Source: Calditrichota bacterium (GTDB lineage: Bacteria; CLD3). Taken from it: 64,000 nucleotides of DNA. Position 1 is the stretch's first letter, and the number at the start of each line of letters is the position of its first letter. The position numbers and the translations under genes were made by a program. The DNA lies in NCBI GenBank assembly GCA_008501735.1, contig QQUF01000045.1, positions 5,735 to 69,734 of the forward strand, written 5' to 3'. The notes beneath the pieces were generated by a model. It made no database searches. It saw only the letters and a list, made by a program, of their open reading frames with translations, and was not told where the DNA came from. Shown here one piece after another: positions 7,277 to 28,944 of the stretch.

Positions 7277-8752
7277 ATGAAAAAAACAATTAAGTTTATA
7301 CTTATATCTTCTGCCTTTGGAGCATTTGCTTCTAATTCGTTTGCACAAAAAATTTATTGGACTGATACCAACTCTGATAAAATCCAAAGAGCTGATTTAG
7401 ATGGCTCAAATGTAGAGGATTTAGTTTCAACTGGCTTGATGAGTCCTGAAGGGTTGGCATTAGATTTAAATAGTTCCAAAATGTATTGGGTTGATTTTGG
7501 TACAAATAAAATTCAAAGAGCTAATTTAGATGGCTCGAATGTTGAAGATTTGATTTCAACTGGCCTTGTCGATCCTTTTGATTTAGCATTAGATTTAAAT
7601 AATTCTAAAATGTATTGGGTTGACGCTGGCACGAATAAAATGCAAAGAGCTAATTTAGATGGCTCGAATGTTGAAGATTTGATAACTAGTTTAATATACC
7701 CATATGGAATAACTTTAGATTTAGTAAATTCAAAAGTATATTGGACAGACGCAGCTCAAGCAAGAGTTTATAGAGCTAATTTGGATGGTTCTAATATTGA
7801 AATAATTATTCCAGGTGGCAGTTTCTTAAACCCAAAAGGTATTGCTTTGGATTTAATAAATTCTAAATTGTATTTTACTGATCAAGGTGACCCAAGAGTT
7901 GTTAGGTCTAATTTAGATGGTTCCAATATAGAAGTCATTTTTACAGATACAGAATTAAGCGAAAACTCTCACCCTCAAGAAATTGTTCTAGATATTGCAA
8001 ACTCTAAATTTTATTTTGCTCTTTCTGGAACAGATAAAATTTCTAAAGCAAATTTTGATGGAACCTCATTAGAAGATGTAATCATAGGAATTCCAGCTCC
8101 TCGTAGTTTAGCCTTATCCATAAGTGATAATCCACTTTCTGTTGAACTTTCCTACTTTAATGCACATCAAATTGGAAACTCAATCCAATTAAACTGGGCA
8201 ACAGGTTCTGAAAAAGATAATGCTGGTTTTAATATTTATAGAAAATTTGCTGATAATGATTTTTTTAAAATCTCTTCTTTTAGAACTAACATAAGTTTGA
8301 TAGGTCAAGGTAACACATCTTTCGATACTCAATATAAATTTACTGACTACTCGAATTTTAATAATAGTGAAATTTACACTTACTTAATTGCTGATGTAGA
8401 TGCAAAAGGAGCCGAAACAATACATAAAGAAATATCACAAAGTGTTTTATTTGAACTTAAGACACAAAAAGTCAATAGATTTGCATTAGAACAGAATTAC
8501 CCAAACCCTTTCAACCCGAAAACAACAATTTCTTATCAACTTGAAAAAGATTCAGAAGTAAACCTTAAAATTTACAATGAAAAGGGAAATTTTGTAAAAA
8601 GCTTATCAAATGGCTTCCAAAAACAAGGGTCTTACAAAGTTATTTGGGATGGCACCGACAATAATGGAAATCAAGTTTCAAATGGCACTTATTTTTATAA
8701 ACTTATAACTGAAACTTTCTCTCAATCAAATAAAATGATTTTATTAAAATAA
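7277..8752 (+). CDS. YWTD (LDL-receptor class B-like) beta-propeller protein with T9SS C-terminal sorting domain
   Basis: 491 aa; signal peptide; repeated blades of the form KIYWTD/KMYWVD...KIQRANLDGSNVEDL; conserved pre-CTD module LSVELSYF...SIQLNW...GFNIYRK; T9SS tail NYPNPFNPKTTISYQL...GTYFYKL. Confidence 0.8.
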   Translation: MKKTIKFILISSAFGAFASNSFAQKIYWTDTNSDKIQRADLDGSNVEDLVSTGLMSPEGLALDLNSSKMYWVDFGTNKIQRANLDGSNVEDLISTGLVDPFDLALDLNNSKMYWVDAGTNKMQRANLDGSNVEDLITSLIYPYGITLDLVNSKVYWTDAAQARVYRANLDGSNIEIIIPGGSFLNPKGIALDLINSKLYFTDQGDPRVVRSNLDGSNIEVIFTDTELSENSHPQEIVLDIANSKFYFALSGTDKISKANFDGTSLEDVIIGIPAPRSLALSISDNPLSVELSYFNAHQIGNSIQLNWATGSEKDNAGFNIYRKFADNDFFKISSFRTNISLIGQGNTSFDTQYKFTDYSNFNNSEIYTYLIADVDAKGAETIHKEISQSVLFELKTQKVNRFALEQNYPNPFNPKTTISYQLEKDSEVNLKIYNEKGNFVKSLSNGFQKQGSYKVIWDGTDNNGNQVSNGTYFYKLITETFSQSNKMILLK

Positions 8753-8764
8753 TCCAACAAACCA

Positions 8765-8793
8765 AACCTGAAAGGTATAAAACCTTTCAGGTT
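8765..8793. terminator. bidirectional intrinsic terminator hairpin between convergent genes
   Basis: Perfect inverted repeat aacctgaaaggt / acctttcaggtt (12-bp stem, loop ataaa) between the stops at 8752 (+) and 8800 (-). Confidence 0.5.
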
Positions 8794-8799
8794 TCAATT

Positions 8800-10017: not shown

Positions 10018-10493
10018 TTTTCACTCCTAAACTTATGAATAATTTTGGTTCTTTTATCTGTCATTTTATAAGTCAAATCTTCATTCCTTAGATTAAACCT
10101 TATGATATTTGAATAATTTTCATCGTAAGTATTAAAACAAGTATTTTCAATTTTTAGCTCAATGATTTCCTTTACCAAAAGATTAGAATCAAAATTTAGA
10201 ATTAAATAATCGTTTTTTTCAACTATTGCCATATTTTTAAACTCAATTTTCACTTCACTTGCAAAACTAGCAAAATTGTTTTCTAAATATTTTTCAATAC
10301 ACCAAAACAACTCCGAAGAATCTGAACAAGAATCTTTAGTCTTTAGTTCTTCTTTTAAATCAAAAATTTTGAATTTTACTACAAGTTGTAACTTTTCGGC
10401 TTTTTCAGAAAAAGTAAAAAATGCTTTGTGACCAATGTGTGCGAAAGAATTACTCGTTAGAATAAATATTAAAATCGAAATAAATTTGCTCAA
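10014..10493 (-). CDS. hypothetical secreted protein (probable operon partner of the YHYH protein)
   Basis: 159 aa ORF overlapping the downstream gene by 4 nt; hydrophobic N-terminus; start codon appears to be TTG (no in-frame ATG near the 5' end), so the start is uncertain. Confidence 0.45.
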   Translation of the reverse strand: MSKFISILIFILTSNSFAHIGHKAFFTFSEKAEKLQLVVKFKIFDLKEELKTKDSCSDSSELFWCIEKYLENNFASFASEVKIEFKNMAIVEKNDYLILNFDSNLLVKEIIELKIENTCFNTYDENYSNIIRFNLRNEDLTYKMTDKRTKIIHKFRSEK

Positions 10494-10654: not shown

Positions 10655-13600
10655 ATGTTTATGCCTTACAAAATCATTTCAAAAATTGCATCTGGAACTT
10701 TCGGAACAGTTTACAAAGCTCAAGAATCAACTAAAGGTGAATTCTACGCACTAAAATTAATTCACGAAAATTACAAAACCCCTATAGAACTGAAACGAAT
10801 CAAACGAGGTTTTGAAACTGCACAAAAAGTCTCACACCCAAATTGTGTTAAAATGATTGAATGGTACGAGGAAAAAGACCAAATCGGTTTTGTGATGGAA
10901 TTTGTGGATTCCGTAGGGAACAAAAATCTTTGTTCCCTACAAAATAAAATCTCAAAAATCATTCAAATTTCAAATGGACTTGAAGCACTTCACTCAAGAG
11001 GAATAATTCACAGAGACCTAAAACCTTCAAATATTCTTGAGGATAAAAACGGACAAATTAAAATCACAGACTTTGATTTGGTTAAAACACAAGAGGCTTC
11101 AACAATTACAAATTCAAAATCGTTTTTGGGAACAGTAAAATTCTCTTCCCCCGAACAGTGCAAAGATTCAAGCAAAATTGACCACAGAAGCGACCTTTAC
11201 TCACTCGGAATAATTTTTTATAAACTTCTAACTAACAGATTTCCTTTTGATGGAGATTCCGTAACAAATATTATTCTTGGACATATAAGAACTCCTCTGA
11301 TTTCTCCGACTCAATTTAATCCCGAAATCCCAATTGAGATTGAAAATGTTGTCAAAAAATTATTAGCAAAAAATCGAAATGACAGGTTCAATTCGGCAAA
11401 AGAAGTAGTCGAAAAACTCCACGTATTTTTAGAAACTCCAACCGAAACTCAAATCCAAACTTCAAGTGATTTTCTTCTTTATCCAAGATTTATCGGAAGA
11501 GAAAATGATTTTAAGAAACTTGAAAAATCATTTTCAAAAACTTCGGAAAGAAAACCACAGTTTGTTTTGATTTCAGGCAAATCGGGAAGTGGTAAGACCC
11601 AACTTTGGAAAGAATTTAAAGAAGGATTTTCTGATAGAGAAACACTTTACCTTAACACAAAATGCAAGGAAAATTCCACAAGTCTTGAACCGTTAAGAGA
11701 AGTTTTATTTCAATGTTTAGAGATTTTGGAAGGATTTTCCGACAATGAAAAACTTCCCTATTTTGGGAATTTCTGTAGAGACTTGGAAATTATTTTACCG
11801 CAAATTTCACAACTTAGCTTTTTTGAAAAACTACCTCAAACCGTAAAACTTTCTCAAGAAGATGGAATTTTTAGATTGTTTGAGGCAGTAGTAACCTTGC
11901 TCAAAAATTTGCAGAAAGAAAAGATATTAGTTTTGTTTTTTGACGATTTACAATGGGCAGATTCGCAAACAACTAAATTTTTACACTTTCTACAAAACAA
12001 CTTTAAAAATGAAAAACTTTTGTTTGCAGGAACTTTAAGACCAAATTTTTCTAAATCCGAACTCAAAGAGAATTTTATAGAAAATTGCTCCCAAATAGAA
12101 CTTGAGTCTTTAACTCTTGGGCAAGTAAAAGAAGTGTTGACTTCAATGCTCGGACAAGTTGAACCTGTAGAAACCAATTTTGCACAGTTGATTTTGGAGA
12201 AGACGGAAGGAAATCCACTTTTTATTCAAGAAATTATGTTTCACTTATTGGAGCAGAAGAAAATTTATAAGAAAAAAAATAAGTGGGTTCTTTCTGAAAG
12301 TGAGATTTTGTCCGAAGAATTACCAAAAAGTATTCATTCGACAATTACAAAAAGAATGGAAGTTCTTCCAAAATCGGTTAAGAACATTTTGCAGATTGCT
12401 TCGGTAATTGGTAAAAGTTTTGATTTTGAATTACTCAAAATTCTTTTGCCAAATTTATTGGAAGTCGAAATTCAAAAAGCACTTTTAAAATCTTGTGAAG
12501 AAAATTATTTGACATCATTTTCAGAGAATTATGAATTTTATCACGACTCAATTCGTGAGACTTTAGAGAAACAAATTCAGTCAAAGAATAAAATTAAATT
12601 CCACAAACAAATTGCGAAATATCTCGAAAGAAAGTTTGACGGTGAAAACGAAGATTTGATTTTACAGCTTGCACATCATTTTTACGAAGCAAAATTAAAA
12701 CAAAAAGCAAAGAAGTATTGTTTGTCTGCAAGTAAGGTTGCTGAAAAAAAATACTCAATCTCAAATGCCATTGATTTTTTGACAAAAGCTATTGAATTAG
12801 AAGTAGATAAAGTCAAAATCATTTCTTTGACGATAAAAAAAGCACTTCTTATGAGAACTTTGGGTGTTCCTAACGAACCTTTGAAGATTGCAAAAAAGGC
12901 ACACAAGCTTTCATTAGAATTGAATGATGAGAATTTAATTGTAGATTCTCTTTTAGTAGTAGGCAACGAAGAAATCCAAAACTTTTTGTTTGAAGAAGGT
13001 TTTGCATCTTTAAATGAAGGATTGAAAATTTCTAAGAAGTTAGGAGATGAAACAAGACTTTCAAAAGCCTTGTTTAAGCTAGGTCAATATTACACAATGA
13101 AAGGTGATTTTGAAGAATCAAATTCTTATTGCCAAAAAGCACTAAAGTTAGCGATAAGTAATGGTTTAAAAGAGCTGGAAATGAAAGTCAATTTTAATAT
13201 TGCAGTTAATTTCCAAAATATTTGGGAATTTGAAAAAGCCTTAAAATACTTAGAAAATAGCATAGAACTTTCTAAAGAATTAAAATTTATCTCAGAATCA
13301 ATTTTTTATGAGACTTCTAAAGGAGTAATTTTAAGAAACTTAGGGAAACTCGAAGAATCTTATAACCTTTTTCTAAAAAATCTTACGAAAACCCAAAAAT
13401 ACGGATTTTATGAAGGAATAATTACAGCAACTTTCGGGATTAGCAATTATTTTTTCATAAAAGCCAATTACTCAAAATCAATTCCTTATTTGGAAAAAAG
13501 TATCTCTATTGCCGAAAAAATTAATGACCCAAAAGCCCTTTTGGAAGGCTTCCAAAACTATTCTTCAGTTCAATTTTTAATGGGAAATTTTGAAAAAAGT

Positions 13601-16570: not shown

Positions 16571-16586
16571 TGGCATTGAGTTTGGA
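16571..16586 (+). promoter_or_regulatory. weak sigma-54-like promoter candidate (TGGCA-N6-TTGGA) upstream of the 16640 cargo gene
   Basis: tggcattgagtttgga matches the -24 TGGCA element and part of the -12 element (TTGG instead of TTGC), about 55 nt upstream of the ATG. Near-match only. Confidence 0.2.
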
Positions 16587-18192: not shown

Positions 18193-19665
18193 ATGAAAAA
18201 ACTTACAACAACACTCTTAACACTTAGTTTAGGCTTAACCTTAGCTTCAACTTCTTTCGCAGATAAAATGTATTGGACGGATTATGGAACAAAAAAAATC
18301 CAACGTTCTGACTTAGATGGTTCAAATATCGAAGACCTTGTTACAACAGGGTTAGGTTTTCCTTTTGGAATGACCTTAGATTTAACTAATTCCAAAATGT
18401 ATTGGGCGGATGGTTCGACAAATAAAATCCAACGTTCTGACTTAGATGGTTCAAATATCGAAGACCTTGTTACAACAGGGTTGAGTTTTCCTGTAGGAAT
18501 CACCTTAGATTTGACTAATTCCAAAATTTATTGGTCAAACTACGGTGACTTAAATATTCAAAGGTCTAATTTAGATGGCACAAATGTGGAAGAAGTAGTT
18601 ACAAATCTGGATACTCCTCTTGGAATTGATTTAGATTTAACAAATTCCAAAATTTATTGGGTTGACACAGGAACGAATAGAATCCAAAGAGCAAACTTAG
18701 ACGGTTCAAGTGTAGAAAATTTAGTTACATCAGGGGTAGATAATTGCAGATTTATTAAGTTAGATATAGCTAGCTCAAAAATGTATTGGACTGATACTTC
18801 AGCAGATAAAATCCAAAGAGCTAATTTAGACGGTTCTAATGTGGAAGATTTAGTTACTACAGGATTAAGTTCCCCTGTAGGTTTAGCTTTAGATATTCCA
18901 AATTCGAAAATGTATTGGACTGATACTTCAGCAGATAAAATCCAAAGAGCAAACTTAGACGGTTCTAATGTGGAAGATTTAGTTACTACAGGACTAAGTT
19001 CTCCTTCTGCAATCGCACTTAATCTTACAGACGCACCACTTTCGGTAGAATTAAATTCTTTCTCTGCTCGTCAATTTGAAAATTCAATCCAACTTAATTG
19101 GTCAACAGCTTCCGAAACTGAAAACGAAGGTTTCAACATTTACAGAAAAACAAGTGGAAGTGAATTTGTCCAAATCGCTTCTTACAAAAGCCACAGAGAA
19201 CTCAAAGGACAAGGAAACACAACATTTGAGACAGGTTACACTTTCACTGACAATTCAAAATTACAAAACAGTGAATTTTACACTTACGTAATTTCTGATG
19301 TTGAAACAAACGGAGTTGAAACCAAGCACCAAGAAAATTCTCAAAGCATAAAATTTGTTTTTGATGAAGAAATTTCACAAACAAAACTTGACTACATTTT
19401 AGCTCAAAATTTCCCTAATCCTTTTAATCCAAGCACAACAATTAATTTTCAAGTTGCGAAAACCCAAGATGTTAGACTTGCAGTTTATAATTTAAACGGA
19501 AAACTTGTGAAGGAACTTGTCAACGAACCGAAAGCCAAAGGCTCACACAATGCAGTTTGGGACGGAACAGATGAAACCGGAAAATCTGTCTCAAGTGGAA
19601 CTTATTTCTACAAAATCTCGGCAGGCACTTTCACACAAACTAACAAAATGATTTTATTAAAATAA
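18193..19665 (+). CDS. YWTD beta-propeller protein with T9SS C-terminal sorting domain (paralog with near-identical internal blade repeats)
   Basis: 490 aa; same architecture as 16640..18109; 5' region including the ribosome-binding context and signal peptide is homologous to the preceding gene. Confidence 0.8.
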   Translation: MKKLTTTLLTLSLGLTLASTSFADKMYWTDYGTKKIQRSDLDGSNIEDLVTTGLGFPFGMTLDLTNSKMYWADGSTNKIQRSDLDGSNIEDLVTTGLSFPVGITLDLTNSKIYWSNYGDLNIQRSNLDGTNVEEVVTNLDTPLGIDLDLTNSKIYWVDTGTNRIQRANLDGSSVENLVTSGVDNCRFIKLDIASSKMYWTDTSADKIQRANLDGSNVEDLVTTGLSSPVGLALDIPNSKMYWTDTSADKIQRANLDGSNVEDLVTTGLSSPSAIALNLTDAPLSVELNSFSARQFENSIQLNWSTASETENEGFNIYRKTSGSEFVQIASYKSHRELKGQGNTTFETGYTFTDNSKLQNSEFYTYVISDVETNGVETKHQENSQSIKFVFDEEISQTKLDYILAQNFPNPFNPSTTINFQVAKTQDVRLAVYNLNGKLVKELVNEPKAKGSHNAVWDGTDETGKSVSSGTYFYKISAGTFTQTNKMILLK

Positions 19666-19685: not shown

Positions 19686-19720
19686 AGCCTGACAATTAAA
19701 ATTGTCGGGCTTTTTTGTTT
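19686..19720 (+). terminator. intrinsic terminator (hairpin plus T-run) after the 18193 gene
   Basis: agcctgacaatt-aaa-attgtcgggc stem (one G-U wobble) followed by ttttttgttttg. Confidence 0.6.
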
Positions 19721-19776: not shown

Positions 19777-22700
19777 ATGCCTTACAAAATCATACGTAAA
19801 ATCGCCTCAGGAACTTTCGGCACAGTTTACAAAGTCCAGGAAACAACTAACAGTGAATTCTACGCCTTAAAATTAATCCACGAAAATTACAAAAGCCCTA
19901 AAGAACTGAAAAGAATCAAACGTGGTTTTGAGTCAGCTCAAATAGTATCACACCCAAATTGTGTAAAAATGATTGAATGGTATGAGGAAAAAGACCAAAT
20001 TGGTTTTGTGATGGAATTTGTAGATTCCGTAGAGACGCAAAATCTCGCGTATAGTGAAAAGAATAATTCCCTTGTAGAGACGCAAAATCTTGCGTCTCTA
20101 CAAAATAAAATTTCAAAAATAATTCAAATTGCAAATGGGCTTGAAGCACTTCACTCAACAGGAATCATTCACAGAGATTTGAAACCTGCAAACATTCTTG
20201 AAACCAAAGATGGTCAAATTAAAATCACTGATTTTGATTTAGTGAAACTTGACGATTCCTCCACTCTCACAGCTTCGGGAGCTTTCCTTGGAACTGCAAA
20301 ATATTCTTCTCCTGAACAATGCCAAAACTCTGCTAAAATTGATTTCCGTTCTGACCTTTACTCACTTGGAGTTCTTTTCTACCAATTAGTTTGTGGCAGA
20401 GTTCCTTTTGAAGGAGATTCATTGGCAGAAATTGCACTTGGTCACATTCGTACTCCACTAATTTCTCCAAAACAATTTGTTCCTGATTTACCAGAAGTTT
20501 TGAATACAGTAATTGCCAAACTCCTAAAAAAAAATCCAAAAGATAGATTTCAATCTGCTCAAGAAGTCTCAAAGATTTTAGATACTTTTTTGAAAGAAGG
20601 AAAAGTTGAAAACTTGGAAACTTTCGGTGATTTTCTTTTAACTCCGGGTTTCGTTGGACGAGGAAAAGAATTTTCAGAGTTGAGCAAAATCTTTTCAGAA
20701 ACAACTAACAAGCTGAAAACAATTCTAATTAGTGGTGAACAAGGAGTTGGAAAAACAAAATTGTGGAAAGAATTCAGACTTGGTTTACCAAAAAACTCAA
20801 CTTTAGTGTTTGAGACAAAGTGCAGACAAAATGGAAACACTTTTGAACCACTTCAAACAATTCTTGCAAAAGCATTAGAACAAATCGAGAAACTTTCTGG
20901 CAAAGAACAAGCTGAAAAAATTGGACGATTTGGAAAAGACCTTTGTAAGATTTTTCCACAACTTGAACAAAAATTTTTTTTTAAACATTTACTGGAAATT
21001 CCAGCTCTTGAGGGTATTGAATCAGAGCTTAGACTTTTTGAAGCATTTACAAATTTCCTAAATAATATTCAAAAAGAAAAACAGACTTTAGTTTTCTTTT
21101 TCGACGACTTACAATGGATTGATGAACTTAGTCTAAAGTTTCTTGGTTATTTAACAAGGAGTTTATCTAATAATTCAATTTTAGTTTTGGGAACTATTAG
21201 AAAAGAACAAATTGAAAATGTATTAGAAGAAATTGATGATTCTAAGATTCTCACTCTCGAAAATTTTGAATTAGAAGAAGTCCGTGAATTTCTCACAAAA
21301 ATGTTTGGCAAAGCTGACCCTGTAAACACAAGATTTTGTGAAGAAATTTTGAAACGCACAGGTGGAAATGTTTTGTTTGTTCAAGAGCTAATTTTTCACT
21401 TGTTAGAAACAAAGGAATTGAATAAAAGTGAGGGTGATTGGGATTTAGGTGAAGAATCTTTCACAAAACTAAAACTACCAAAATCAATTCAAAGTGTTGT
21501 TGGTGAACGTCTAAATTTCTTACCTAAAAATTTACTAAAGTTACTCGAAGTTGGTGCACTTCTCGGAAAGTTTTTTACAACGAAAGTAGTGGCAGAAGTC
21601 CTTTCTTTAGAAGAAAATGAAGTTGAAAGTAAATTAGCAAACTCGACTTTTGAAGGTATTTTAGAAAAATCGGAAAGTAATATTTTTGAATTCGTAAACG
21701 ACTCTTTTAGAGAAAGCCTTTCAAATTCGCTAAAACCAAATACCAAAAAGTCAATTCACAGAAAGATAGCAGTTTACTTAGAGAAGCGTTTTAATGAATT
21801 TGAAATTTTGGAAGAACTTGCTAATCATTACTTTGAAGCTGGTGTGAAGAAAAAAACTTTTAATTACTGTTTGAAAGCTGGAGTTTCTTTAAAAGAGGTT
21901 TATGACTATGCGAAAGCAGAAACATTTATTTCAAATGCAATTACTGCAATTGAAGCGAGAAATATTTCCGAAAGAATAAATATTTCTAACCTAAAGGCTG
22001 AATGCTTAGAAAAGTTGGGTGATTTTGAACAAGCCGAAAAAATTTATTCCCATAATTTAAAATTGGCATTTGATTCAAATTCTGAAAATGAAATAATAGC
22101 TGATATTTATTTTGCTTTGGGTAGAATTAATTCTGAATTATTTAATATTGAAAATACTCAAAAATATTTTAAACTATCTTTAAACCTTTACATCAAATTA
22201 AGAGATTTTAAATTTATAATTTTAATTCATAAAGAATTGTCTCGTTCATTTATTTATCAAAATAAATTTTCTGAAGCCCAAAAATATTTAGATTTAGCAT
22301 TAGAAGTTGCTGAAAGTAATAAAATTTATGATGAAGTGATTAGTTGTTATACTTACCAATGTACTATTCTTGGAAGTGTCGGAAAATTCGATGAGGTTTT
22401 GATTTATGCAAAAAAGATTAATGATTTTGAAGAAAAGCAAGGAAGTTCAAGGAAAGATTTTACGGGTTTAATTTTTCTCGGTTGGGTTTATAAAAACTTA
22501 ACAAATTTTGTAAAAGCATCTTTTTATTTTGAAAAAGCTGTTAAAAATTTAGAGAAGAACAGTTATTCTGATACATATTTAAGAGCGTTAAACGGTGTTA
22601 GCCTTTGTAATTTTGAATTAGGAAATTTTGAAAAAGCAATTGAATTCTCTTTGAAAACTATCAGACAAGCAATCCTAATTAAAGATTTTAGACAAGTAGG

Positions 22701-24834
22701 AAATTCTTACAACGACATTGCATTATTTTATACAACCTACGGAAACTTTGATGAAGCCTCTAAAATGCTTGACAAAAGCATTGAAGTATCAAGAAAAATT
22801 AATGATGAATTTCAAATTGCAAATTCATTTTATCTTTTGGGAGAGATTGAATTTTTTAAAAGCAATTTTTTAGAAGCGATTTCAAATTATGAAGAATCTG
22901 TTAAAATTTATAGTAAAATTGAAATGGAGTTCAAAGCTCCAATTTTATTATACAATCTTTCTAAGTCAAATTATAAACTCAGAAACTACCCAAAAGCATT
23001 AGAAAATATATCTAAAAGCCAAGAACTTGCCCAAAAATTTGAAAATGAGAATGTAATTTTCAATTGTCAAATTTTGAAAAATAAAATTGATTTTATGTTG
23101 GGAAATAAAGAGCAAGCAATTCAAAATATTTACTCTTTTATTCAATCTGAAAATGATGAAAGAAAATCAGCAATTTTAAGAATTTCATTCTGTAATCTTT
23201 TTGCAAAAGACCGAAGTTTGGGAATTTTGATTTCAGAGGATTTTGATTTTCAAGAATTTCTTTTAGAAACAAAAAGTTTAACTGAAAAGGTTCTGAAAGA
23301 GAAGTTTAATTATGAAATTTCTAAGGACTTAGAAGAACTGAAACTTCTTGAAAAACCTTCTATTAGCTTGGATTTAGATTTAATTTCCTCGTTTGTGAAA
23401 TGGATTGAACCTTCAAATCTTTTTAGCGAACTTTTAGAATTTTTGAAAAAACAAACAAATGCAACTTCGGCAATTCTTATTTTACAGAATCCAATTACCA
23501 AAAAATTTGAAATTGCAAGTTCAACGAATGAAATTTCAAATGAGGATTTAGATTTTAGCAAAGGTATTTTTGAAGAATCAATAAAAAATCATAAACCAAT
23601 TCTAATTGAGAATGCTTTAGAGAATCCAAATTTTAGTTCAAACCAAAGTGTTGTCGGTAAGATTTTCCTTTCGGTTTTAGTTGTCCCAGTAAGTCTAAAT
23701 AAAAAAGTTATTGGAGCAATTTACGTTGAACGCTCAAAATTGGAATTAGAAAAATTTAGAATCCCTGATTTGCAACAAGTCGAAAGAATTGCAAAACTTA
23801 TTTCACCGATTTTGCAAAAACAAAACGAAAACAAAGTTCTTAAAACTGAATCAGAAGTTAAAAAATTAGGAATCTTCATTGGTAACAGCCTAAAAATGCA
23901 AAAATTATATCAGCAAATCCAAAATGCTGCGACAGTTGATTACACAACTTACATTTACGGCGAAACCGGAACAGGGAAAGAATTAGTTGCAACTGCTCTG
24001 CACAAATTAAGTCTAAGAAAAGACAAACCTTTTGTAGTAATTAATTGCTCGGCAATTCCGAAAGATTTAGCTGAAAGTGAACTTTTCGGACATTCAAAAG
24101 GTGCGTTTAGTGGAGCAATTTCTGATAAAACAGGAAAATTTGAACTTGCAAACGAAGGAACACTTTTCCTTGATGAAGTCGCAGAATTATCTTTGGAAAT
24201 TCAAGCAAAACTGCTCCGAGCAATTCAACAAAAGGAAATTTGGCGAGTCGGTGGAAACAAAGGAATAAAAGTAAACATAAAAATCATTGTTGCAACTCAC
24301 AAAAATCTTAGCGAGGAAGTTCAGAAAGGTAATTTCCGTGAAGACCTTTTTCACAGATTAGATGTTTTGAAAATCGAAGTTCCTCCTTTGAGGGAAAGGT
24401 TAGAAGACATTCCACTTTTAGCAAATTCAATTTTAGAAAAAGTCAGTAAGGAGTTGAACAAAAAATTCTTGGGTTTCTCACAAAGTGGAATTAAATCTCT
24501 TTTTGAACAAAGATGGAAGGGGAATGTCAGAGAATTAGAAAATGTGATTACAAAATCAGTAATAAATCTTCAAATTGAAAAGTCATTAAGCGAAAATGAT
24601 TTATTCCCAAATCAAATTACCAAACGAAATTCAGATGAACCTTTAGAAGTAATCCTTAATGGAAAATCTTTTGATGAGAAATTAGAAAACTTGGGTAAAA
24701 AAATCTTGTTAACAAACTTAGAGTCCACAAATTGGAACAAACGGCAATCGGCAAGAGAATTAGGAATTAGTAGAAATAGGCTCAAACGTTTGATTTCTAA
24801 GTATGAGCTTGTTGAACCACATTCTTCACTTTAG
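19777..24834 (+). CDS. giant multidomain regulator, paralog 2: Ser/Thr kinase - LAL-type NTPase - TPR - GAF - sigma-54 activator - HTH
   Basis: 1685 aa; kinase motifs (ASGTFGTVYKV, HRDLKPANIL, ITDFDL, SSPEQ); Walker A GEQGVGKTKLW and Walker B LVFFFDDLQWID; TPR-like region; GAF-like (VGKIFLSVLVVPV...GAIYVER); sigma-54 activator (GETGTGKELVATALH, ESELFGHSKGAFSGA, FLDEVAEL, FREDLFHRLDV); C-terminal HTH (RQSARELGISRNRLKRLI). Confidence 0.85.
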   Translation: MPYKIIRKIASGTFGTVYKVQETTNSEFYALKLIHENYKSPKELKRIKRGFESAQIVSHPNCVKMIEWYEEKDQIGFVMEFVDSVETQNLAYSEKNNSLVETQNLASLQNKISKIIQIANGLEALHSTGIIHRDLKPANILETKDGQIKITDFDLVKLDDSSTLTASGAFLGTAKYSSPEQCQNSAKIDFRSDLYSLGVLFYQLVCGRVPFEGDSLAEIALGHIRTPLISPKQFVPDLPEVLNTVIAKLLKKNPKDRFQSAQEVSKILDTFLKEGKVENLETFGDFLLTPGFVGRGKEFSELSKIFSETTNKLKTILISGEQGVGKTKLWKEFRLGLPKNSTLVFETKCRQNGNTFEPLQTILAKALEQIEKLSGKEQAEKIGRFGKDLCKIFPQLEQKFFFKHLLEIPALEGIESELRLFEAFTNFLNNIQKEKQTLVFFFDDLQWIDELSLKFLGYLTRSLSNNSILVLGTIRKEQIENVLEEIDDSKILTLENFELEEVREFLTKMFGKADPVNTRFCEEILKRTGGNVLFVQELIFHLLETKELNKSEGDWDLGEESFTKLKLPKSIQSVVGERLNFLPKNLLKLLEVGALLGKFFTTKVVAEVLSLEENEVESKLANSTFEGILEKSESNIFEFVNDSFRESLSNSLKPNTKKSIHRKIAVYLEKRFNEFEILEELANHYFEAGVKKKTFNYCLKAGVSLKEVYDYAKAETFISNAITAIEARNISERINISNLKAECLEKLGDFEQAEKIYSHNLKLAFDSNSENEIIADIYFALGRINSELFNIENTQKYFKLSLNLYIKLRDFKFIILIHKELSRSFIYQNKFSEAQKYLDLALEVAESNKIYDEVISCYTYQCTILGSVGKFDEVLIYAKKINDFEEKQGSSRKDFTGLIFLGWVYKNLTNFVKASFYFEKAVKNLEKNSYSDTYLRALNGVSLCNFELGNFEKAIEFSLKTIRQAILIKDFRQVGNSYNDIALFYTTYGNFDEASKMLDKSIEVSRKINDEFQIANSFYLLGEIEFFKSNFLEAISNYEESVKIYSKIEMEFKAPILLYNLSKSNYKLRNYPKALENISKSQELAQKFENENVIFNCQILKNKIDFMLGNKEQAIQNIYSFIQSENDERKSAILRISFCNLFAKDRSLGILISEDFDFQEFLLETKSLTEKVLKEKFNYEISKDLEELKLLEKPSISLDLDLISSFVKWIEPSNLFSELLEFLKKQTNATSAILILQNPITKKFEIASSTNEISNEDLDFSKGIFEESIKNHKPILIENALENPNFSSNQSVVGKIFLSVLVVPVSLNKKVIGAIYVERSKLELEKFRIPDLQQVERIAKLISPILQKQNENKVLKTESEVKKLGIFIGNSLKMQKLYQQIQNAATVDYTTYIYGETGTGKELVATALHKLSLRKDKPFVVINCSAIPKDLAESELFGHSKGAFSGAISDKTGKFELANEGTLFLDEVAELSLEIQAKLLRAIQQKEIWRVGGNKGIKVNIKIIVATHKNLSEEVQKGNFREDLFHRLDVLKIEVPPLRERLEDIPLLANSILEKVSKELNKKFLGFSQSGIKSLFEQRWKGNVRELENVITKSVINLQIEKSLSENDLFPNQITKRNSDEPLEVILNGKSFDEKLENLGKKILLTNLESTNWNKRQSARELGISRNRLKRLISKYELVEPHSSL
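20074..20101. repeat. perfect hairpin (10-bp stem, loop aaaatctt) embedded in the kinase-domain coding sequence, preceded by a partial direct copy at 20029-20050
   Basis: gtagagacgc-aaaatctt-gcgtctctac read directly; a 22-nt near-copy gtagagacgcaaaatctcgcgt lies 45 nt upstream; together they encode an insertion (VETQNLAYSEKNNSLVETQNLASL) relative to paralog 1. Confidence 0.6.
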
Positions 24835-24960: not shown

Positions 24961-25137
24961 TTTGTTTAAAGGAACAATGGGCTTGAATCAAATTATTGAT
25001 TTTACACAACTTATACAACCTTTGGAAAATTTGGCACAGAATTAGTAACTACTTTGAGGTAATTAATTACATAGCCTTTCGTCTCGTAGTTTTATTGCTA
25101 CGAGGCGATTTATTAATTAAAACTAAGGAACTAAAAA

Positions 25138-26613
25138 ATGCACAAATTTACAAAAGCCTTCATTTCTTTAAGTTTACCACTTTGCTTTATCGCAAACGTC
25201 AATGCACAGAAAATTTATTGGTCCGACCAACCAAATTTGAAAAGAGCAGATCTAGATGGCTCAAATGTAGAAGACATTACTCCAGCAATTTTTAACGGTC
25301 CAAGAGCCGTTACAGTTAATAAAACAGAATCAAAGATTTATTGGGTTGACCAAAACGGATTTAATTATCGCAAATCTGATTTAGACGGTACAAATTTGGA
25401 AACTTTGTTCAATACAACAGGTGGTGCAGGAACTGCAATGGCAATTGATGAAACAAACTCAAATATTTATCACGGAAATGTTAGTTTTGTAGGTGGCTTT
25501 AACCCATTTATTGAAAAAAGAAATTTAGATGGTTCGAACAACTCTACAATTATTAGTTCTTTATCTGGTAGTGTCAAAGATATTGCATTAGATGTTAATA
25601 ACTCTTTAATTTATTTTACAGTTTCAAATACAATCCAAACAGTAAACTTTGATGGCTCTAACCAACAAACTATTGTTACAGCAACAAGTAATATTCAAGA
25701 CATTACTTTAGATTTGACGAATAATAAACTTTACTACACAGACCAAAACACTGGTTTAAATACTGGAAAAGTAGTAAGAACAGACTTAGATGGTTCAAAT
25801 CCAACAGACATTCTTACAGCCTTATCTAATCCTGAAGATATTCATTTAGATGTAACAAATTCTCAAATCTATTGGGGAGACGGTGGAGAAGATAAAATTT
25901 TTAGATGCAATTTTGACGGAACAGGAACTGAGACAATTGTCACTGGAGTCAGTATTTCTATTGCTGATTTCTCATTAGTCTCAGCAGATGCACCACTTTC
26001 TGTAGAATTAAATTATTTCACAGCTCGTCAAATTGAAAACTCAATTCAGCTTTCCTGGGCAACGGCTTCTGAAACTGAAAATGAAGGTTTTAATGTTTAT
26101 AGAAAATTAGGAAATGAGGATTTTGTAAAAATCGCTTCTCACAAATCTCACACTGAACTTAAAGGGCAAGGGAACACTTCTTTAGAAACTTTTTACACCT
26201 TTAATGACAACTCAAAATTACAAAATGGCGAATTTTACACTTACCTAATTTCAGACGTTGAAACAAATGGAATTGAAACTAAGCACGAAGAATCTGCTCA
26301 AAGTGTTCTTTTTGAAGTCCAATCACAGGAAGTCAGAAAATTCGAGTTAAAACAAAACTATCCTAATCCTTTTAATCCAAGTACAACAATTTCTTACAAT
26401 CTTGCAAAAGATTCAAAAGTAAGTCTCAAGATTTACAATGAAATAGGTGAATTTGTCAAAGAACTCACAAATGGTTTTCGTTACGAAGGTTCACACAATG
26501 TAATTTGGGACGGAACTAACAACAATGGAAAATCTGTTTCAAGTGGAACTTACTTCTACAAAATTTCAGCAGGAACTTTCACACAAACTAACAAAATGAT
26601 TCTACTCAAATAA
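25138..26613 (+). CDS. divergent YWTD-like beta-propeller protein with T9SS C-terminal sorting domain
   Basis: 491 aa; signal peptide; degenerate blades (KIYWSD, KIYWVD, LIYFT, KLYYTD, QIYWGD with DLDGSN/DLDGTN); LSVELNYFTARQIENSIQLSW module; T9SS tail. The C-terminal ~375 nt is identical to the next gene. Confidence 0.75.
   Translation: MHKFTKAFISLSLPLCFIANVNAQKIYWSDQPNLKRADLDGSNVEDITPAIFNGPRAVTVNKTESKIYWVDQNGFNYRKSDLDGTNLETLFNTTGGAGTAMAIDETNSNIYHGNVSFVGGFNPFIEKRNLDGSNNSTIISSLSGSVKDIALDVNNSLIYFTVSNTIQTVNFDGSNQQTIVTATSNIQDITLDLTNNKLYYTDQNTGLNTGKVVRTDLDGSNPTDILTALSNPEDIHLDVTNSQIYWGDGGEDKIFRCNFDGTGTETIVTGVSISIADFSLVSADAPLSVELNYFTARQIENSIQLSWATASETENEGFNVYRKLGNEDFVKIASHKSHTELKGQGNTSLETFYTFNDNSKLQNGEFYTYLISDVETNGIETKHEESAQSVLFEVQSQEVRKFELKQNYPNPFNPSTTISYNLAKDSKVSLKIYNEIGEFVKELTNGFRYEGSHNVIWDGTNNNGKSVSSGTYFYKISAGTFTQTNKMILLK
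26083..26457 (+). repeat. ~375-bp tract identical to 28413..28787 (copy A)
   Basis: Direct by-eye nucleotide comparison: gaaggttttaatgtttatagaaaattagg ... gaaataggtgaatttgt is identical in both adjacent genes, whereas flanking sequence differs at multiple sites. Confidence 0.8.
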
Positions 26614-26694
26614 ATTATCAGATTTAAAGTTGGAAATTGGAAAAGAAGCGATATTGGAAAATTTAAATTCTAAACAACAATAGGAATTAACAAA

Positions 26695-28944
26695 ATGAAA
26701 AATTTAGCTAAATCCATTTTAACCATAGTAATTAGCTTTAATTTCTTTTCGAATAGTTTCGCAGAGTATGAGAAAAAAATTGTTTCTAATGACTTGGTAG
26801 CAGATGATTTTTTAGGTCAAGATGTTGACATTAGTGGAGATTACGCAATTGTTGGAGCTCCAAATGATGACGATGGATTTCTAAGTTCGGGTTCAGCTTA
26901 CATTTTTAAAAGGTCTGGAACTGCTTGGGTCCAACAAGCAAAACTAACGGCAAGTGATGCTGCACAAGGTGTTAATTTCGGAAAGGCTGTTGCTATTAGT
27001 GGAGATTATGCCGTTGTTGGTTCTAATTCGTCTTTTATTGCAGGTTCTGCAAATGTTTTTGTCAGGACTGGAAATTCTTGGACTGAGCAAGCTAAGATTT
27101 CGGGCTTAGACCCAACGGCTAATAATGAATTTGGCTCATTTGTTGAAATTGATGGAGATTACATAATTGTTGGAGCTCCAAGAGCTGAACACGGTGGAAT
27201 TCAAAATACAGGTGCAGTTTACATATTTCATAGAAGTGGGACAAGTTGGAATCAGCAGAACAAACTTGTAGGCTCTGGTTCAGGTTCTAATGATGGTTTT
27301 GGGTATTCAGTTTCAATAAGTGGAGATAAAGCTATAGTTGGAGCAAACGGCACAAATAATGCTGGAATAGCTTACATTTTTGAAAGAAATGGTTCATCTT
27401 GGACTCAACAAACTGCATTAATTCCGAATGATACTCATTCAAATGCTTTCTTTGGACAAGGAGTTGGGATTTATGAAAATTATGCTGTAATTGGTGCTCC
27501 ATTTCATAATGGAACAGAATCAGCTTCAGGTTCCGCTTATGTATATAAATTTTCAGGTGGTTTTTGGACTCAAGAGGCTCAACTTTTTGCAAGTGATATT
27601 GGTGCAAATGAATTTTTTGGTTGGTCGGTAGATATAAACGGAACTGACTTGTTTATTAGTTGTTTAAATGAAAATGATGGAAGTTTTTCTCAAATTGGTT
27701 CTGCTTATCATTTCGCAGAAGAAGGAAACAACTGGGTCCAACAGGCAAAATTCAAAGCAGATGATGGAGCTTCAGGAGATAATTTTGGATTCCAAATCGC
27801 AGCCTCTTCAAGTTTTGCAATTGTTGGAGCTTATCAAAATGATGGAGTTGCAACTGATGGAGGAGCAGCATACATTTATTCAATAAACCCATTCGGGAAT
27901 GGTGATGTAACAAAAGCAATCTCTGGAGATGTTGATGTGAGTTTTGACGAAGGTTCTGGTGATAACACAACTCCAAATGAGGACACAGGAATAGACATTT
28001 CTTTTACTGGTGTCTCGAATTCTGCAAGTGTTCAATGTGAATCTTTTCCAGAAGCCCCAACAGGAACAAATGGAATTTCAGGAACGGTACAAGAAGTTCG
28101 TTGGGTAATTACAAATTCGGGATTGAATTTTGCAAATGCTGAAATTAAAATTGATATGACAACACTTCCTATTGAAATGAATAATCCTAATACAGCAATA
28201 ATTTATCATCGTTCAACTCCTGGAAGTGGAACCTTTTCAGCACTTGCAACAACCGTTGATGGAAATAATCTTGTCGCAAACACGCCAAGTTTTAGTGAAT
28301 TTGCAATTGGTGGCGGAGATTCTCCTCTTGCAGTGGAATTAAGTTCTTTTTCTGCTCGTCAAATTGGAAGTTCGATTCAACTTAATTGGTCAACAGCTTC
28401 TGAAACTGAAAACGAAGGTTTTAATGTTTATAGAAAATTAGGAAATGAGGATTTTGTAAAAATCGCTTCTCACAAATCTCACACTGAACTTAAAGGGCAA
28501 GGGAACACTTCTTTAGAAACTTTTTACACCTTTAATGACAACTCAAAATTACAAAATGGCGAATTTTACACTTACCTAATTTCAGACGTTGAAACAAATG
28601 GAATTGAAACTAAGCACGAAGAATCTGCTCAAAGTGTTCTTTTTGAAGTCCAATCACAGGAAGTCAGAAAATTCGAGTTAAAACAAAACTATCCTAATCC
28701 TTTTAATCCAAGTACAACAATTTCTTACAATCTTGCAAAAGATTCAAAAGTAAGTCTCAAGATTTACAATGAAATAGGTGAATTTGTAAAAGAACTCACA
28801 AATGGATTCCGTTACGAAGGTTCACACAATGTAATTTGGGACGGAACTAACAACAACGGAAAATCTGTTTCAAGTGGAATTTACTTCTACAAAATTTCAG
28901 CAGGAACTTTTACACAAACGAATAAAATGATTTTGCTGAAGTAG
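26695..28944 (+). CDS. FG-GAP repeat (integrin-alpha-like) beta-propeller protein with T9SS C-terminal sorting domain
   Basis: 749 aa; signal peptide; repeated FG...GAP units (FLGQDVDISGDYAIVGAPNDDDG...SGSAYIF, FGKAVAISGDYAVVGS, FGSFVEIDGDYIIVGAPRAEHGG, FGYSVSISGDKAIVGA); LAVELSSFSARQIGSSIQLNW module; T9SS tail; starts 81 nt after the preceding gene with no terminator between. Confidence 0.8.
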   Translation: MKNLAKSILTIVISFNFFSNSFAEYEKKIVSNDLVADDFLGQDVDISGDYAIVGAPNDDDGFLSSGSAYIFKRSGTAWVQQAKLTASDAAQGVNFGKAVAISGDYAVVGSNSSFIAGSANVFVRTGNSWTEQAKISGLDPTANNEFGSFVEIDGDYIIVGAPRAEHGGIQNTGAVYIFHRSGTSWNQQNKLVGSGSGSNDGFGYSVSISGDKAIVGANGTNNAGIAYIFERNGSSWTQQTALIPNDTHSNAFFGQGVGIYENYAVIGAPFHNGTESASGSAYVYKFSGGFWTQEAQLFASDIGANEFFGWSVDINGTDLFISCLNENDGSFSQIGSAYHFAEEGNNWVQQAKFKADDGASGDNFGFQIAASSSFAIVGAYQNDGVATDGGAAYIYSINPFGNGDVTKAISGDVDVSFDEGSGDNTTPNEDTGIDISFTGVSNSASVQCESFPEAPTGTNGISGTVQEVRWVITNSGLNFANAEIKIDMTTLPIEMNNPNTAIIYHRSTPGSGTFSALATTVDGNNLVANTPSFSEFAIGGGDSPLAVELSSFSARQIGSSIQLNWSTASETENEGFNVYRKLGNEDFVKIASHKSHTELKGQGNTSLETFYTFNDNSKLQNGEFYTYLISDVETNGIETKHEESAQSVLFEVQSQEVRKFELKQNYPNPFNPSTTISYNLAKDSKVSLKIYNEIGEFVKELTNGFRYEGSHNVIWDGTNNNGKSVSSGIYFYKISAGTFTQTNKMILLK
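28413..28787 (+). repeat. ~375-bp tract identical to 26083..26457 (copy B)
   Basis: See copy A; identity ends abruptly on both sides. Confidence 0.8.

What the first reader, a model, noticed from the sequence alone, without database searches (positions are those of the whole stretch)
7277..28944. Family of T9SS cargo genes sharing a conserved ~190-aa C-terminal module on different passenger propellers
Five genes (7277, 16640, 18193, 25138, 26695) end with the same module: a beta-sandwich-like segment (LSVEL-SF-A-Q...SIQLNW-T-SE-N-GFN-YRK ... FYTY-I-DV) followed by the T9SS tail (NYPNPFNP...GTYFYK). Their N-terminal passengers are different propeller types (YWTD versus FG-GAP). Stop-codon-proximal flanks are also shared (aaataaatttgctctct after 18109 and 19665), so duplication included the 3' ends. 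This looks like modular exchange of passenger domains on a common export and anchoring module.
Basis: seen in the sequence. Interest (0 to 1): 0.5.

Follow-up and report, generated by a model that had tools for sequence, protein, structure and literature searches.

The report
Shared FN3-plus-T9SS tail on cargo genes
Five secreted-protein genes in a Calditrichota genome end in the same two-domain tail, a fibronectin-III-like spacer followed by a type IX secretion signal; neighbouring genes keep this tail alike by gene conversion, which is a tidy but ordinary example of how such cargo proteins are built.

Summary
Five + strand genes (7277, 16640, 18193, 25138, 26695) share a C-terminal cassette of 205-208 aa. 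Four carry six-bladed YWTD propellers and one carries an FG-GAP_2 propeller.

The cassette is more than the generic tail. It has a 119-122 aa pre-CTD segment that matches no Pfam or NCBIfam model, followed by an 86-aa type A T9SS CTD. Two other CTD-bearing genes in the window lack the pre-CTD segment.

The FN3 domain is widespread: 1,120 representative clusters at E<=1e-10, on many passenger types. It is also independent of T9SS. In other phyla it ends the protein or precedes a transmembrane, arginine-rich tail.

Locally, four of the genes are whole-gene paralogs. The near-identity between g25138 and g26695 (374 nt identical) and between g16640 and g18193 (90-98% over about 270 nt) is gene conversion between tandem neighbours, not a fresh passenger swap.

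The architecture parallels the known IgSF-linker-CTD tandem of RgpB. This is a new member of a known kind, of modest interest.

The parts
7277..8752 (+). g7277, a 491-aa cargo gene. It has a Sec signal peptide (MKKTIKFILISSAFGAFASNSFA), a six-bladed YWTD propeller, an FN3-like domain (DNA 8135-8491) and a type A CTD (8492-8752). It lies 36 nt downstream of g4826 and is followed by a hairpin.
16640..18109 (+). g16640, a 489-aa cargo gene with signal peptide, six YWTD blades, an FN3-like domain (17492-17848) and a CTD (17849-18109). It is the first gene of pair A.
18193..19665 (+). g18193, a 490-aa cargo gene with signal peptide, six YWTD blades, an FN3-like domain plus a 3-aa longer linker (19039-19404) and a CTD of a second subtype (19405-19665). 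It is the second gene of pair A.
25138..26613 (+). g25138, a 491-aa cargo gene with signal peptide, a diverged YWTD propeller, an FN3-like domain (25996-26352) and a CTD (26353-26613). It is the first gene of pair B.
26695..28944 (+). g26695, a 749-aa cargo gene with signal peptide, a seven-repeat FG-GAP_2 propeller, an unassigned middle region of about 140 aa, an FN3-like domain (28327-28683) and a CTD (28684-28944). It is the second gene of pair B.
26083..26456 (+). Gene-conversion tract, copy in g25138. These 374 nt are 100% identical to 28414-28787. The tract spans the distal FN3-like domain, the linker and the first half of the CTD.
   Evidence: alignment columns 154-527; 34 differences in 624 aligned nt, clustered at the ends; permutation p~0
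28414..28787 (+). Gene-conversion tract, copy in g26695.
17513..17782 (+). Second conversion tract, copy in g16640. It is 90-98% identical to 19060-19329 in g18193. Identity falls to 53-63% in the linker and the first half of the CTD.
   Evidence: sliding windows; longest identical run 55 nt, permutation p~0.001
19060..19329 (+). Second conversion tract, copy in g18193.
4826..7240 (+). Comparator gene encoding cyclophilin + FG-GAP_3 propeller + type A CTD, without the FN3-like domain. It shows that the generic tail alone does not account for the shared module.
10655..15706 (+). Regulator A (1683 aa) with Pkinase + AAA_16 + TPR + Sigma54_activat + HTH_8, directly upstream of pair A.
   Evidence: paralogy with regulator B (D13, D15, D16)
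19777..24834 (+). Regulator B (1685 aa) with the same architecture plus a detectable GAF domain, directly upstream of pair B. It is followed by a strong bidirectional terminator at 24907-24954.
16571..16586 (+). Weak sigma-54-like -24/-12 site TGGCATTGAGTTTGGA, ending 54 nt upstream of the g16640 ATG. This is a lead only.
   Evidence: 2 mismatches; window-wide 35 sites against 22.5 expected
25032..25047 (+). Weak sigma-54-like site TGGCACAGAATTAGTA, ending 91 nt upstream of the g25138 ATG and downstream of the regulator's terminator. This is a lead only.
19686..19711 (+). Intrinsic terminator after pair A. It is homologous to the hairpin after pair B (28971-29015, 80% over 45 nt).
   Evidence: (D19)

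Best explanation
The five genes encode Sec-exported surface or secreted proteins of a Calditrichota bacterium, built to the standard plan of type A T9SS cargo. Each has a signal peptide, a beta-propeller passenger (six-bladed YWTD in four genes, seven-repeat FG-GAP_2 in one), a divergent FN3 domain, a flexible linker of about 15-20 aa, and an 86-aa CTD of the FlgD-Ig / Por_Secre_tail type.

Shown: the domain composition, the fold, the homologies and the mosaic DNA identity pattern.

Inferred by analogy with RgpB IgSF-linker-CTD: the CTD is the outer-membrane export signal and is removed in or near the linker. That would leave the FN3 domain as the C-terminal, surface-proximal stalk that spaces the propeller from the attachment point.

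The FN3 domain is an old, independent domain that usually sits last in a protein. In lineages that use the NPFNP-type CTD it has been joined to that CTD, and the pair travels on many passengers.

In this genome the family grew by whole-gene duplication and by duplication of a three-gene unit (a Ser/Thr-kinase/sigma-54 activator plus two cargo genes). The 3' cassettes of tandem neighbours are being homogenised by gene conversion. That is why g26695, with an unrelated passenger, carries a tail almost identical to g25138's.
For: Domain calls:
- YWTD and FG-GAP_2 passengers, and the CTD above the curated cut-offs of PF13860 (42-53 bits against 27), PF18962 (28-33 against 27) and TIGR04183 (28-39 against 23).
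- Signal peptides read directly from the sequence.

The pre-CTD segment is an FN3 domain:
- The AF2 model built on a 42-sequence alignment has pLDDT 90.6. It shows two beta-sandwiches joined by a low-confidence linker, residues about 111-130.
- hhalign against Pfam-verified fn3 domains of window genes 29589-41377 gives 96%, E 2.7e-9.

The CTD half matches FlgD, PorU and PorZ chains in the PDB.

Breadth of the FN3-like family:
- 15,354 representative clusters at E<=1e-3 and 1,120 at E<=1e-10.
- In 132 of the top 150 hits an NPF motif lies in the last 110 residues; the median distance from the end of the domain to the C-terminus is 100 aa.
- 46 Pfam families were matched among 77 carrier proteins, CTD models included.

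Independence from T9SS: in other phyla the domain ends the protein or precedes a TM + Arg-rich tail.

Gene conversion:
- The mosaic identity pattern.
- Purifying selection, dN/dS 0.02-0.35.
- Diverged FG-GAP_2 + module paralogs.
- Module and CTD trees mix the passenger types.

Source: a Calditrichota MAG in which NCBI names all five proteins 'T9SS C-terminal target domain-containing protein'.

The IgSF-linker-CTD precedent and the spacer interpretation come from PMC4804311.
Against: - No T9SS machinery gene (SprA/Sov, PorK-N, PorU, PorV) lies in the window, and I could not examine the rest of the genome. I found no paper in the library that mentions both Caldithrix/Calditrichaeota and T9SS. 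Actual T9SS export is therefore inferred from the CTD alone.
- Cleavage, lipid or LPS attachment and a stalk role for the FN3 domain are untested.
- In many other phyla the FN3-like domain is the very end of the protein with no anchor. This fits a plain structural or adhesive domain as well as it fits a stalk.
- The relative orientation of the two domains in the model is uncertain (pTM 0.59).
- The contig comes from a MAG, so a repeat-induced assembly error at the 374-nt identical tract cannot be formally excluded.
Confidence: 0.8

Rival explanations
1. The shared region is only the generic T9SS tail, with no additional conserved domain.
For: All five tails do match generic CTD models.
Against: The CTD-bearing genes 4826-7240 and 8800-10017(-) share nothing upstream of the CTD. 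The 119-aa upstream segment forms its own HMM family and folds as a separate FN3-like sandwich. It also occurs without any CTD in other phyla.
Confidence: 0.02
2. A recent domain-shuffling event fused an FG-GAP_2 passenger onto the 3' half of a YWTD gene, or swapped the passengers, to create g26695.
For: The passengers are unrelated (15% identity), while the modules are 93% and the CTDs 99% identical and include 374 identical nt. The genes are adjacent.
Against: - Upstream of the identical tract, homology continues at only 75-88% for about 90 nt before it stops at the domain boundary. Downstream it falls to 88-97%. This is the pattern of a conversion tract inside an already homologous cassette.
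- FG-GAP_2 proteins with the same middle region and a diverged module exist: P0046, P0004, P0006, P0005 and P0008.
- The terminator after g26695 is homologous to that of its positional counterpart g18193, not to g25138's flank.
Confidence: 0.12
3. The similarity among the tails reflects only whole-gene tandem duplication plus strong purifying selection. No recombination between cassettes is involved.
For: Four of the genes are whole-gene paralogs of 489-491 aa. dN/dS is low.
Against: - Selection does not remove synonymous differences, yet 374 nt are identical between g25138 and g26695, whose other pairwise dS values in the family are 0.6-2.4.
- Nearest-neighbour relationships switch along the cassette. 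g16640 is closest to g18193 in the FN3 part but closest to g25138/g26695 in the CTD.
- The passenger of g26695 is not homologous to the others.
Confidence: 0.05
4. The identical tract, and perhaps g26695's tail as a whole, is an assembly artefact of a short-read MAG caused by a collapsed or mis-joined repeat.
For: The source is a metagenome-assembled genome. Long exact repeats are a known place for mis-joins.
Against: - Both copies have their own diverged flanks on each side of the tract, inside the reading frame.
- Both ORFs are intact.
- The downstream terminator of g26695 matches the positional homolog in the duplicated unit (D19).
- The contig is 359 kb.
- A second, less complete conversion tract between g16640 and g18193 shows the same behaviour.
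Confidence: 0.04

Closest known systems
IgSF-linker-CTD tandem of Porphyromonas gingivalis gingipain RgpB (also Kgp and PPAD), PMC4804311
   Same: Both have a functional passenger followed by an Ig-like beta-sandwich 'spacer', a flexible unstructured linker and a seven-strand beta-sandwich CTD. The model here likewise shows two sandwiches with a low-confidence linker and no fixed orientation (pTM 0.59).
   Different: The spacer here is an FN3-type domain of a separate sequence family, with a 13-residue insertion relative to the fn3 domains compared by hhalign. The CTD is the 'NPFNP' FlgD-Ig subtype. The organism is a Calditrichota bacterium, not a Bacteroidota one. No cleavage or A-LPS data exist.
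Type A T9SS sorting domain (TIGR04183 / PF18962 Por_Secre_tail; PF13860 FlgD_ig)
   Different: None for the CTD itself. The upstream 119 aa are outside these models.
Fibronectin type III domain (PF00041 and relatives)
   Different: No match to any Pfam or NCBIfam model, even at E<=10. The segment has a characteristic N-terminal 'LPVEL.SF.A' strand, an 'SE..N.GF' motif and a 13-aa insertion. It shows a strong positional preference for the end of the protein or a position just before a sorting signal.
'Choice-of-anchor' domains (an NCBIfam naming concept for domains found next to alternative C-terminal sorting signals; from my own knowledge, with the term seen as an annotation label)
   Same: The FN3-like domain sits immediately before different C-terminal endings in different lineages. 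These are a T9SS CTD (KSB1, Bacteroidota, Cloacimonadota, Calditrichota), a TM + Arg-rich tail (Anaerolineales), or nothing.
   Different: It matches none of the NCBIfam models, named choice-of-anchor families included. Most non-T9SS copies have no recognisable anchor at all.

Membership tests
T9SS type A cargo | C-terminal sorting domain matching TIGR04183 / PF18962 above the curated cut-off | tested here: met
   TIGR04183 scores 28.4-39.1 bits (cut-off 23). PF18962 scores 28.3-33.2 bits (cut-off 27). PF13860 scores 41.8-53.3 bits (cut-off 27). This holds for all five genes.
T9SS type A cargo | N-terminal Sec signal peptide for export to the periplasm | tested here: met
   The sequence reads M-K/H-K/N, then a hydrophobic core, then 'SNSFA', 'STSFA' or 'ANVNA' before the mature start. 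No signal-peptide predictor was available, so this rests on reading the sequence.
T9SS type A cargo | T9SS machinery (SprA/Sov, PorK/L/M/N, PorU, PorV) encoded in the same genome | not testable with these tools
   None lies in the 64-kb window. The rest of the MAG could not be fetched (one search found no record). Two literature searches on Calditrichaeota/Caldithrix plus T9SS found nothing.
T9SS type A cargo | CTD removed by PorU, with the mature protein attached to the surface or released | not testable with these tools
   Needs proteomics. Inferred only from RgpB (PMC4804311).
Fibronectin type III superfamily (for the pre-CTD segment) | Seven-strand beta-sandwich superposable on FN3 structures | tested here: met
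Fibronectin type III superfamily (for the pre-CTD segment) | Detectable sequence-profile relationship to fn3 | tested here: met
   hhalign of A5 against A6 (fn3 domains with a Pfam PF00041 hit) gives probability 96.2%, E 2.7e-9 over 73 columns. The module HMM weakly hits the same three fn3-bearing ORFs.
Pfam PF00041 fn3 (the curated family itself) | Score above the Pfam gathering threshold | tested here: not met
   No Pfam hit at E<=10 for the window modules or for six of seven distant members. The remaining hits are unrelated and below threshold. It belongs to the superfamily but not to this model.
YWTD / LDL-receptor class B beta-propeller (passenger of four genes) | Six tandem repeats of about 43 aa matching PF00058 | tested here: met
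   PF00058 E 1.8e-11 to 3.2e-43. There are six 126-132-nt repeats per gene in g16640 and g18193 (D8). g25138 is diverged, with no single repeat passing on its own.
FG-GAP_2 beta-propeller (passenger of g26695) | Seven repeats matching PF14312 | tested here: met
   PF14312 E 6e-90, 7 stretches.
Sigma-54-dependent operon (pairs A and B under the adjacent activators) | -24 GG / -12 GC promoter upstream of the operon | tested here: inconclusive
   One site lies upstream of each pair (16571-16586 and 25032-25047). Both have TGGCA(C/T) at -24 but imperfect -12 elements (TTGGA, TAGTA). Window-wide, 35 sites with up to 2 mismatches were found against 22.5 expected.

The most novel reading that the evidence does not exclude
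The pre-CTD segment may represent a very large FN3 subfamily, not yet modelled in Pfam or NCBIfam, that is specialised for the last position before a cell-envelope sorting signal. It would be coupled to the T9SS CTD in Calditrichota, KSB1, Bacteroidota and Cloacimonadota, and to a so far unclassified 'PNAVGL..FGA-TM-RRRR' tail in Anaerolineales. It stands alone at the C-terminus in Thermodesulfobacteriota, Planctomycetota/Brocadia, Poribacteria and Sumerlaeia. On this reading it has a conserved role of its own in surface attachment or in handing cargo to the sorting machinery, rather than being a passive spacer.
Probability: 0.2. Interest if true: 0.5.

Novelty: new member of a known kind. Interest (0 to 1): 0.3.

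Why it matters
The biology is mostly as expected. T9SS cargo is known to be modular, and an Ig-like spacer before the CTD is a textbook feature of the gingipains.

Three things are useful here.

1. A concrete, very abundant FN3-like domain with a strict end-of-protein preference is missing from Pfam-A and NCBIfam. It has over 1,000 representative clusters at E<=1e-10. A model for it would improve annotation of thousands of proteins now labelled only 'T9SS C-terminal target domain-containing protein'.

2. This is a clear case of gene conversion homogenising the export cassette between adjacent genes with unrelated passengers. Similarity in the tails of T9SS cargo therefore cannot be used naively to infer orthology or recent domain shuffling.

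3. Each two-gene cargo operon is paired with a giant Ser/Thr-kinase/STAND/TPR/GAF/sigma-54 activator. This suggests signal-dependent expression of surface propeller proteins in Calditrichota and could be tested.

Tried and rejected
- The search for homologous proteins with the 120-aa module of g16640 returned nothing. This is a limit of the word index, because the exhaustive HMMER search found thousands of hits.
- The single-sequence AF2 model was useless, pLDDT 35.6. The alignment-based model replaced it.
- PDB sequence search with the module profile gave only a marginal 'Fn3-like protein' hit, 3mpc, E 0.037. The fold and profile-profile comparisons were needed instead.
The window-only alignment A1 was used instead. 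It found only distant relatives (<=41% identity over near-full-length matches), so the source species is not among the GTDB representatives or JGI contigs searched.
- The look-up of encoding contigs found no record for g26695 or P0003. I could therefore not test conservation of the regulator-cargo linkage or the presence of T9SS machinery.
- The afdb50 fold library was unavailable.
- Rfam and tRNA scans of the window found nothing.
- The 930-bp ORF-poor spacer at 15707-16639 shows no remnant of a cargo gene by blastn or tblastx against the window.
- The sigma-70 promoter scan was uninformative, 42 found against 43.9 expected.
- One placement in the NJ module tree, g7277 with P0003, conflicts with the pairwise identities. 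I do not rely on it. I use only the sister pairs that identity values corroborate.
- The relatives P0003-P0008 and P0046 carry NCBI accessions from the same submission block. I cannot say whether they belong to the same MAG or a sibling MAG, so I treat them as 'diverged copies', not as orthologs.

Full report
OBSERVATION

The region holds five intact + strand ORFs at the stated coordinates: 7277-8752, 16640-18109, 18193-19665, 25138-26613 and 26695-28944. A protein alignment of their last 215 residues shows continuous homology from 'PL(S/A)VEL' to the C-terminal 'KM(I/V)LLK'. The ungapped DNA repeat finder independently recovers five in-register copies of the 3' block, starting near 8125/17482/19029/25986/28317 and ending about 11 nt after each stop codon (D2-D6, D11).

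The block measures 205-208 aa rather than about 190. It consists of 119-122 aa before the 'QN(Y/F)PNPFNP' motif and 86 aa from that motif to the end. The flank 'ATTTGCTCTCT' after 18109 and 19665 is present as reported. The terminators after 19665 and 28944 are also homologous (D19).

IS IT MORE THAN THE GENERIC TAIL?

Yes. Pfam and NCBIfam place the T9SS type A sorting domain (PF18962, PF13860, TIGR04183, all above curated cut-offs) only on the last 80 residues or so of each protein. Two further CTD-bearing genes in the window align with the five genes over the CTD only. These are 4826-7240 (cyclophilin + FG-GAP_3 propeller) and 8800-10017(-) (YHYH protein).

The upstream 119-aa segment has no Pfam or NCBIfam match even at E<=10. 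An HMM built from it finds exactly the five ORFs in a six-frame translation of the window, at E 1e-42 to 1e-46.

WHAT THE PRE-CTD SEGMENT IS

A single-sequence AlphaFold run failed, with pLDDT 35.6. With a 42-sequence alignment of module plus CTD (A3) the model reached pLDDT 90.6. It shows two beta-sandwiches separated by a lower-confidence linker at residues about 111-130. The pTM of 0.59 means the relative orientation is not fixed.

A profile-profile comparison settles the relationship. The module alignment (A5) was compared with the fn3 domains of the three large paralogs at 29589-41377(-). One of these was scanned and has a Pfam PF00041 hit. The comparison gives 96% probability and E 2.7e-9. 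In that alignment the B-strand Trp and the F-strand 'Y.Y' line up, and the module carries a 13-residue insertion. The segment is therefore a divergent FN3 domain that current curated models miss.

HOW WIDESPREAD IT IS, AND WHAT IT TRAVELS WITH

An exhaustive HMMER search with the five-sequence module profile found 15,354 representative clusters at E<=1e-3 and 1,120 at E<=1e-10. The weaker tail of this list includes multi-repeat FN3 proteins.

Among the top 150 hits, 134 have a single copy of the domain. The median distance from the end of the domain to the C-terminus is 100 aa, and 132 have an NPF motif in the last 110 residues. In 77 full-length representatives, 46 different Pfam families were matched, CTD models included. 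The passenger families include FG-GAP types, Laminin_G_3, LTD, Glug, YWTD, Kelch, endonuclease I, MAM, P_proprotein, CARDB and lectins. The FN3-CTD pair is thus a promiscuous C-terminal cassette.

The FN3 part is not tied to T9SS, however. In species-representative genomes and JGI metagenome contigs it is followed by an NPFNP-type or classical CTD in KSB1, Bacteroidota, Cloacimonadota, Salinivenus and Hymenobacter. In Thermodesulfobacteriota, Planctomycetota/Brocadia, Caldilineae, Poribacteria and Sumerlaeia it is the very end of the protein, with tails of 9-31 aa. In Anaerolineales it precedes a 40-48 aa tail with a hydrophobic helix and an Arg-rich end.

The tally over all fetched loci is 116 C-terminal, 19 TM + basic tail and 16 NPFNP-type CTD. 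This tally is biased by the search pattern used. Distant members likewise match no Pfam or NCBIfam model.

LOCAL EVOLUTION

The four YWTD genes are whole-gene paralogs. They share length (489-491 aa), signal-peptide style, six blades, an FN3 domain and a CTD. Their passengers are 39-61% identical.

The surrounding layout is a duplicated three-gene unit: regulator 10655-15706 + g16640 + g18193, and regulator 19777-24834 + g25138 + g26695. The regulators are paralogous (D13, D15, D16) and the terminators after the second cargo gene are homologous (D19).

Identity along the cassette is mosaic:
- g16640 and g18193 are 90-98% identical over alignment nt 31-300 (the FN3 part) but only 53-63% identical in the linker and the first half of the CTD. 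There g18193 carries a second CTD subtype, shared with P0006 and P0007.
- g25138 and g26695 are 98-100% identical over nt 91-570, including 374 consecutive identical nt at 26083-26456 and 28414-28787. Their passengers are unrelated, at 15% identity.

Permutation of the difference positions gives p~0 for the g25138/g26695 pair and p~0.001 for the g16640/g18193 pair. The cassette is under purifying selection, with dN/dS 0.02-0.35, but selection cannot explain the missing synonymous differences.

Upstream of the identical tract, g25138 and g26695 remain homologous at 75-88% down to the domain boundary. Diverged FG-GAP_2 + middle region + FN3 + CTD proteins also exist, for example P0046 with a passenger 50% identical over 534 aa and a module only 38% identical. 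The simplest reading is that g26695's family already had this cassette, and that tandem neighbours are being homogenised by gene conversion. A recent passenger swap is possible but less likely.

Module similarity also crosses passenger types elsewhere. P0006 (FG-GAP) and P0007 (YWTD) have modules 76% identical and unrelated passengers. At the family level, therefore, exchange or conversion of cassettes among different passengers is real. The relatives carry NCBI accessions from the same submission as the window's proteins, so I cannot say whether they are paralogs in the same MAG or copies in a sibling MAG.

SOURCE AND CONTEXT

Exact-sequence look-up identifies the window as part of a 359-kb contig of a Calditrichota MAG. 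The five proteins are KAA3597867, KAA3597871, KAA3597872, KAA3597874 and KAA3597875, all named 'T9SS C-terminal target domain-containing protein'.

Each cargo pair is preceded by a protein of about 1,685 aa that combines Pkinase, AAA_16 (STAND), TPR, GAF (detected in one), a sigma-54 interaction domain and HTH_8. A strong bidirectional terminator at 24907-24954 separates regulator B from g25138. Terminators follow g18193 and g26695.

One weak sigma-54-like site lies upstream of the first gene of each pair, at 16571-16586 and 25032-25047. Both have imperfect -12 elements, and such sites are only modestly enriched in the window. I treat the regulatory link as a lead.

MECHANISM

Shown:
- domain composition and order;
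- the fold of the cassette;
- its distribution across genomes;
- the conversion tracts.

Inferred from established T9SS biology and from the RgpB IgSF-CTD study (PMC4804311):
- Sec export takes the proteins to the periplasm.
- The T9SS recognises the CTD.
- The CTD is removed in or near the flexible linker.
- The FN3 domain is left as the C-terminal, surface-proximal spacer below the propeller.

That the organism has a T9SS could not be tested here. No machinery gene is in the window, the rest of the genome could not be fetched, and the literature searches found nothing.

COMPARISON AND VERDICT

The architecture matches the known 'passenger, Ig-like spacer, linker, CTD' plan. The CTD is a bona fide TIGR04183/PF18962 member. 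The spacer belongs to the FN3 superfamily but to no curated family.

It needs three corrections:
- there are two separable domains;
- most of the local similarity comes from whole-gene paralogy;
- the similarity across passengers comes from gene conversion rather than a fresh domain swap.

This is a new member of a known kind. Interest is modest (0.3). The main value lies in an annotation gap for a very abundant end-of-protein FN3 subfamily and in a clean example of concerted evolution of an export cassette.

Noticed in passing
window 10655-15706 (+), 19777-24834 (+), 60005-63997 (-): Three giant regulators combine (in the two complete ones) an N-terminal Ser/Thr kinase, an AAA_16/STAND NTPase, TPR repeats, GAF, a sigma-54 interaction domain and a Fis-type HTH. 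Two of them each sit directly upstream of a two-gene cargo operon, as part of a duplicated three-gene unit. The third runs off the window end and shows no kinase domain in the part visible.
   Followed up: partly
window 29589-33488, 33519-37427, 37469-41377 (all -): Three tandem paralogs of about 1,300 aa have a signal peptide, Sortilin-Vps10/BNR-like repeats and two genuine fn3 domains, but no T9SS CTD. They served as the fn3 reference for the hhalign test.
   Followed up: partly
loci L008, L016, L017, L023, L024, L026, L030, L097, L099, L106 (Anaerolineales and related contigs); tails listed: In these Chloroflexota contigs the same FN3-like domain is followed by a conserved 40-48 aa tail: 'P(N/T)AVGL..FGA', a hydrophobic helix and then RRRR. 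It looks like a C-terminal sorting signal. It scores below threshold against PEP-CTERM (9.9 bits against a cut-off of 16), so it is unclassified here.
   Followed up: partly
window 18741-18998 and 18282-18539 (inside g18193): Blades 5 and 6 of the YWTD propeller share a 30-aa identical stretch (105 of 129 nt identical in the 129-nt windows compared). Blades 1 and 2 are 113 of 129 nt identical. Recent intragenic blade duplication or conversion therefore accompanies the intergenic conversion.
   Followed up: partly
window 24899-24962: A 64-nt self-complementary stretch (blastn) contains a 20-bp-stem hairpin (24907-24954) flanked by T and A runs. It acts as a bidirectional terminator-like element between regulator B and g25138. 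A second hairpin at 25079-25108 lies in the presumed 5' leader of g25138.
   Followed up: no
window 15707-16639: A 930-bp spacer between regulator A and g16640 has no convincing ORF, no Rfam hit and no similarity to the cargo genes or to the much shorter equivalent spacer (303 bp) in unit B.
   Followed up: partly
proteins P0006 (KAA3604313) and P0159 (KAA3604314), on one 22.7-kb Calditrichota contig: Consecutive accession numbers indicate another adjacent pair of an FG-GAP cargo and a YWTD cargo, both with the FN3-CTD cassette. The YWTD/FG-GAP pairing seen at 25138-28944 therefore recurs elsewhere.
   Followed up: no
window 8800-10017 (-) and 10014-10493 (-): A YHYH-domain protein with a classical (non-NPFNP) type A CTD overlaps by 4 nt with a DUF6702 protein. 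Two CTD subtypes thus coexist in one genome neighbourhood.
   Followed up: no
window 7277, 16640, 18193, 26695 (first 25 codons): The signal peptides of the YWTD genes and of the FG-GAP_2 gene g26695 all end in 'S(N/T)SFA'. Homology among g7277, g16640 and g18193 starts 13 nt upstream of the ATG (D12). The 5' ends may therefore also be shared or converted.
   Followed up: no
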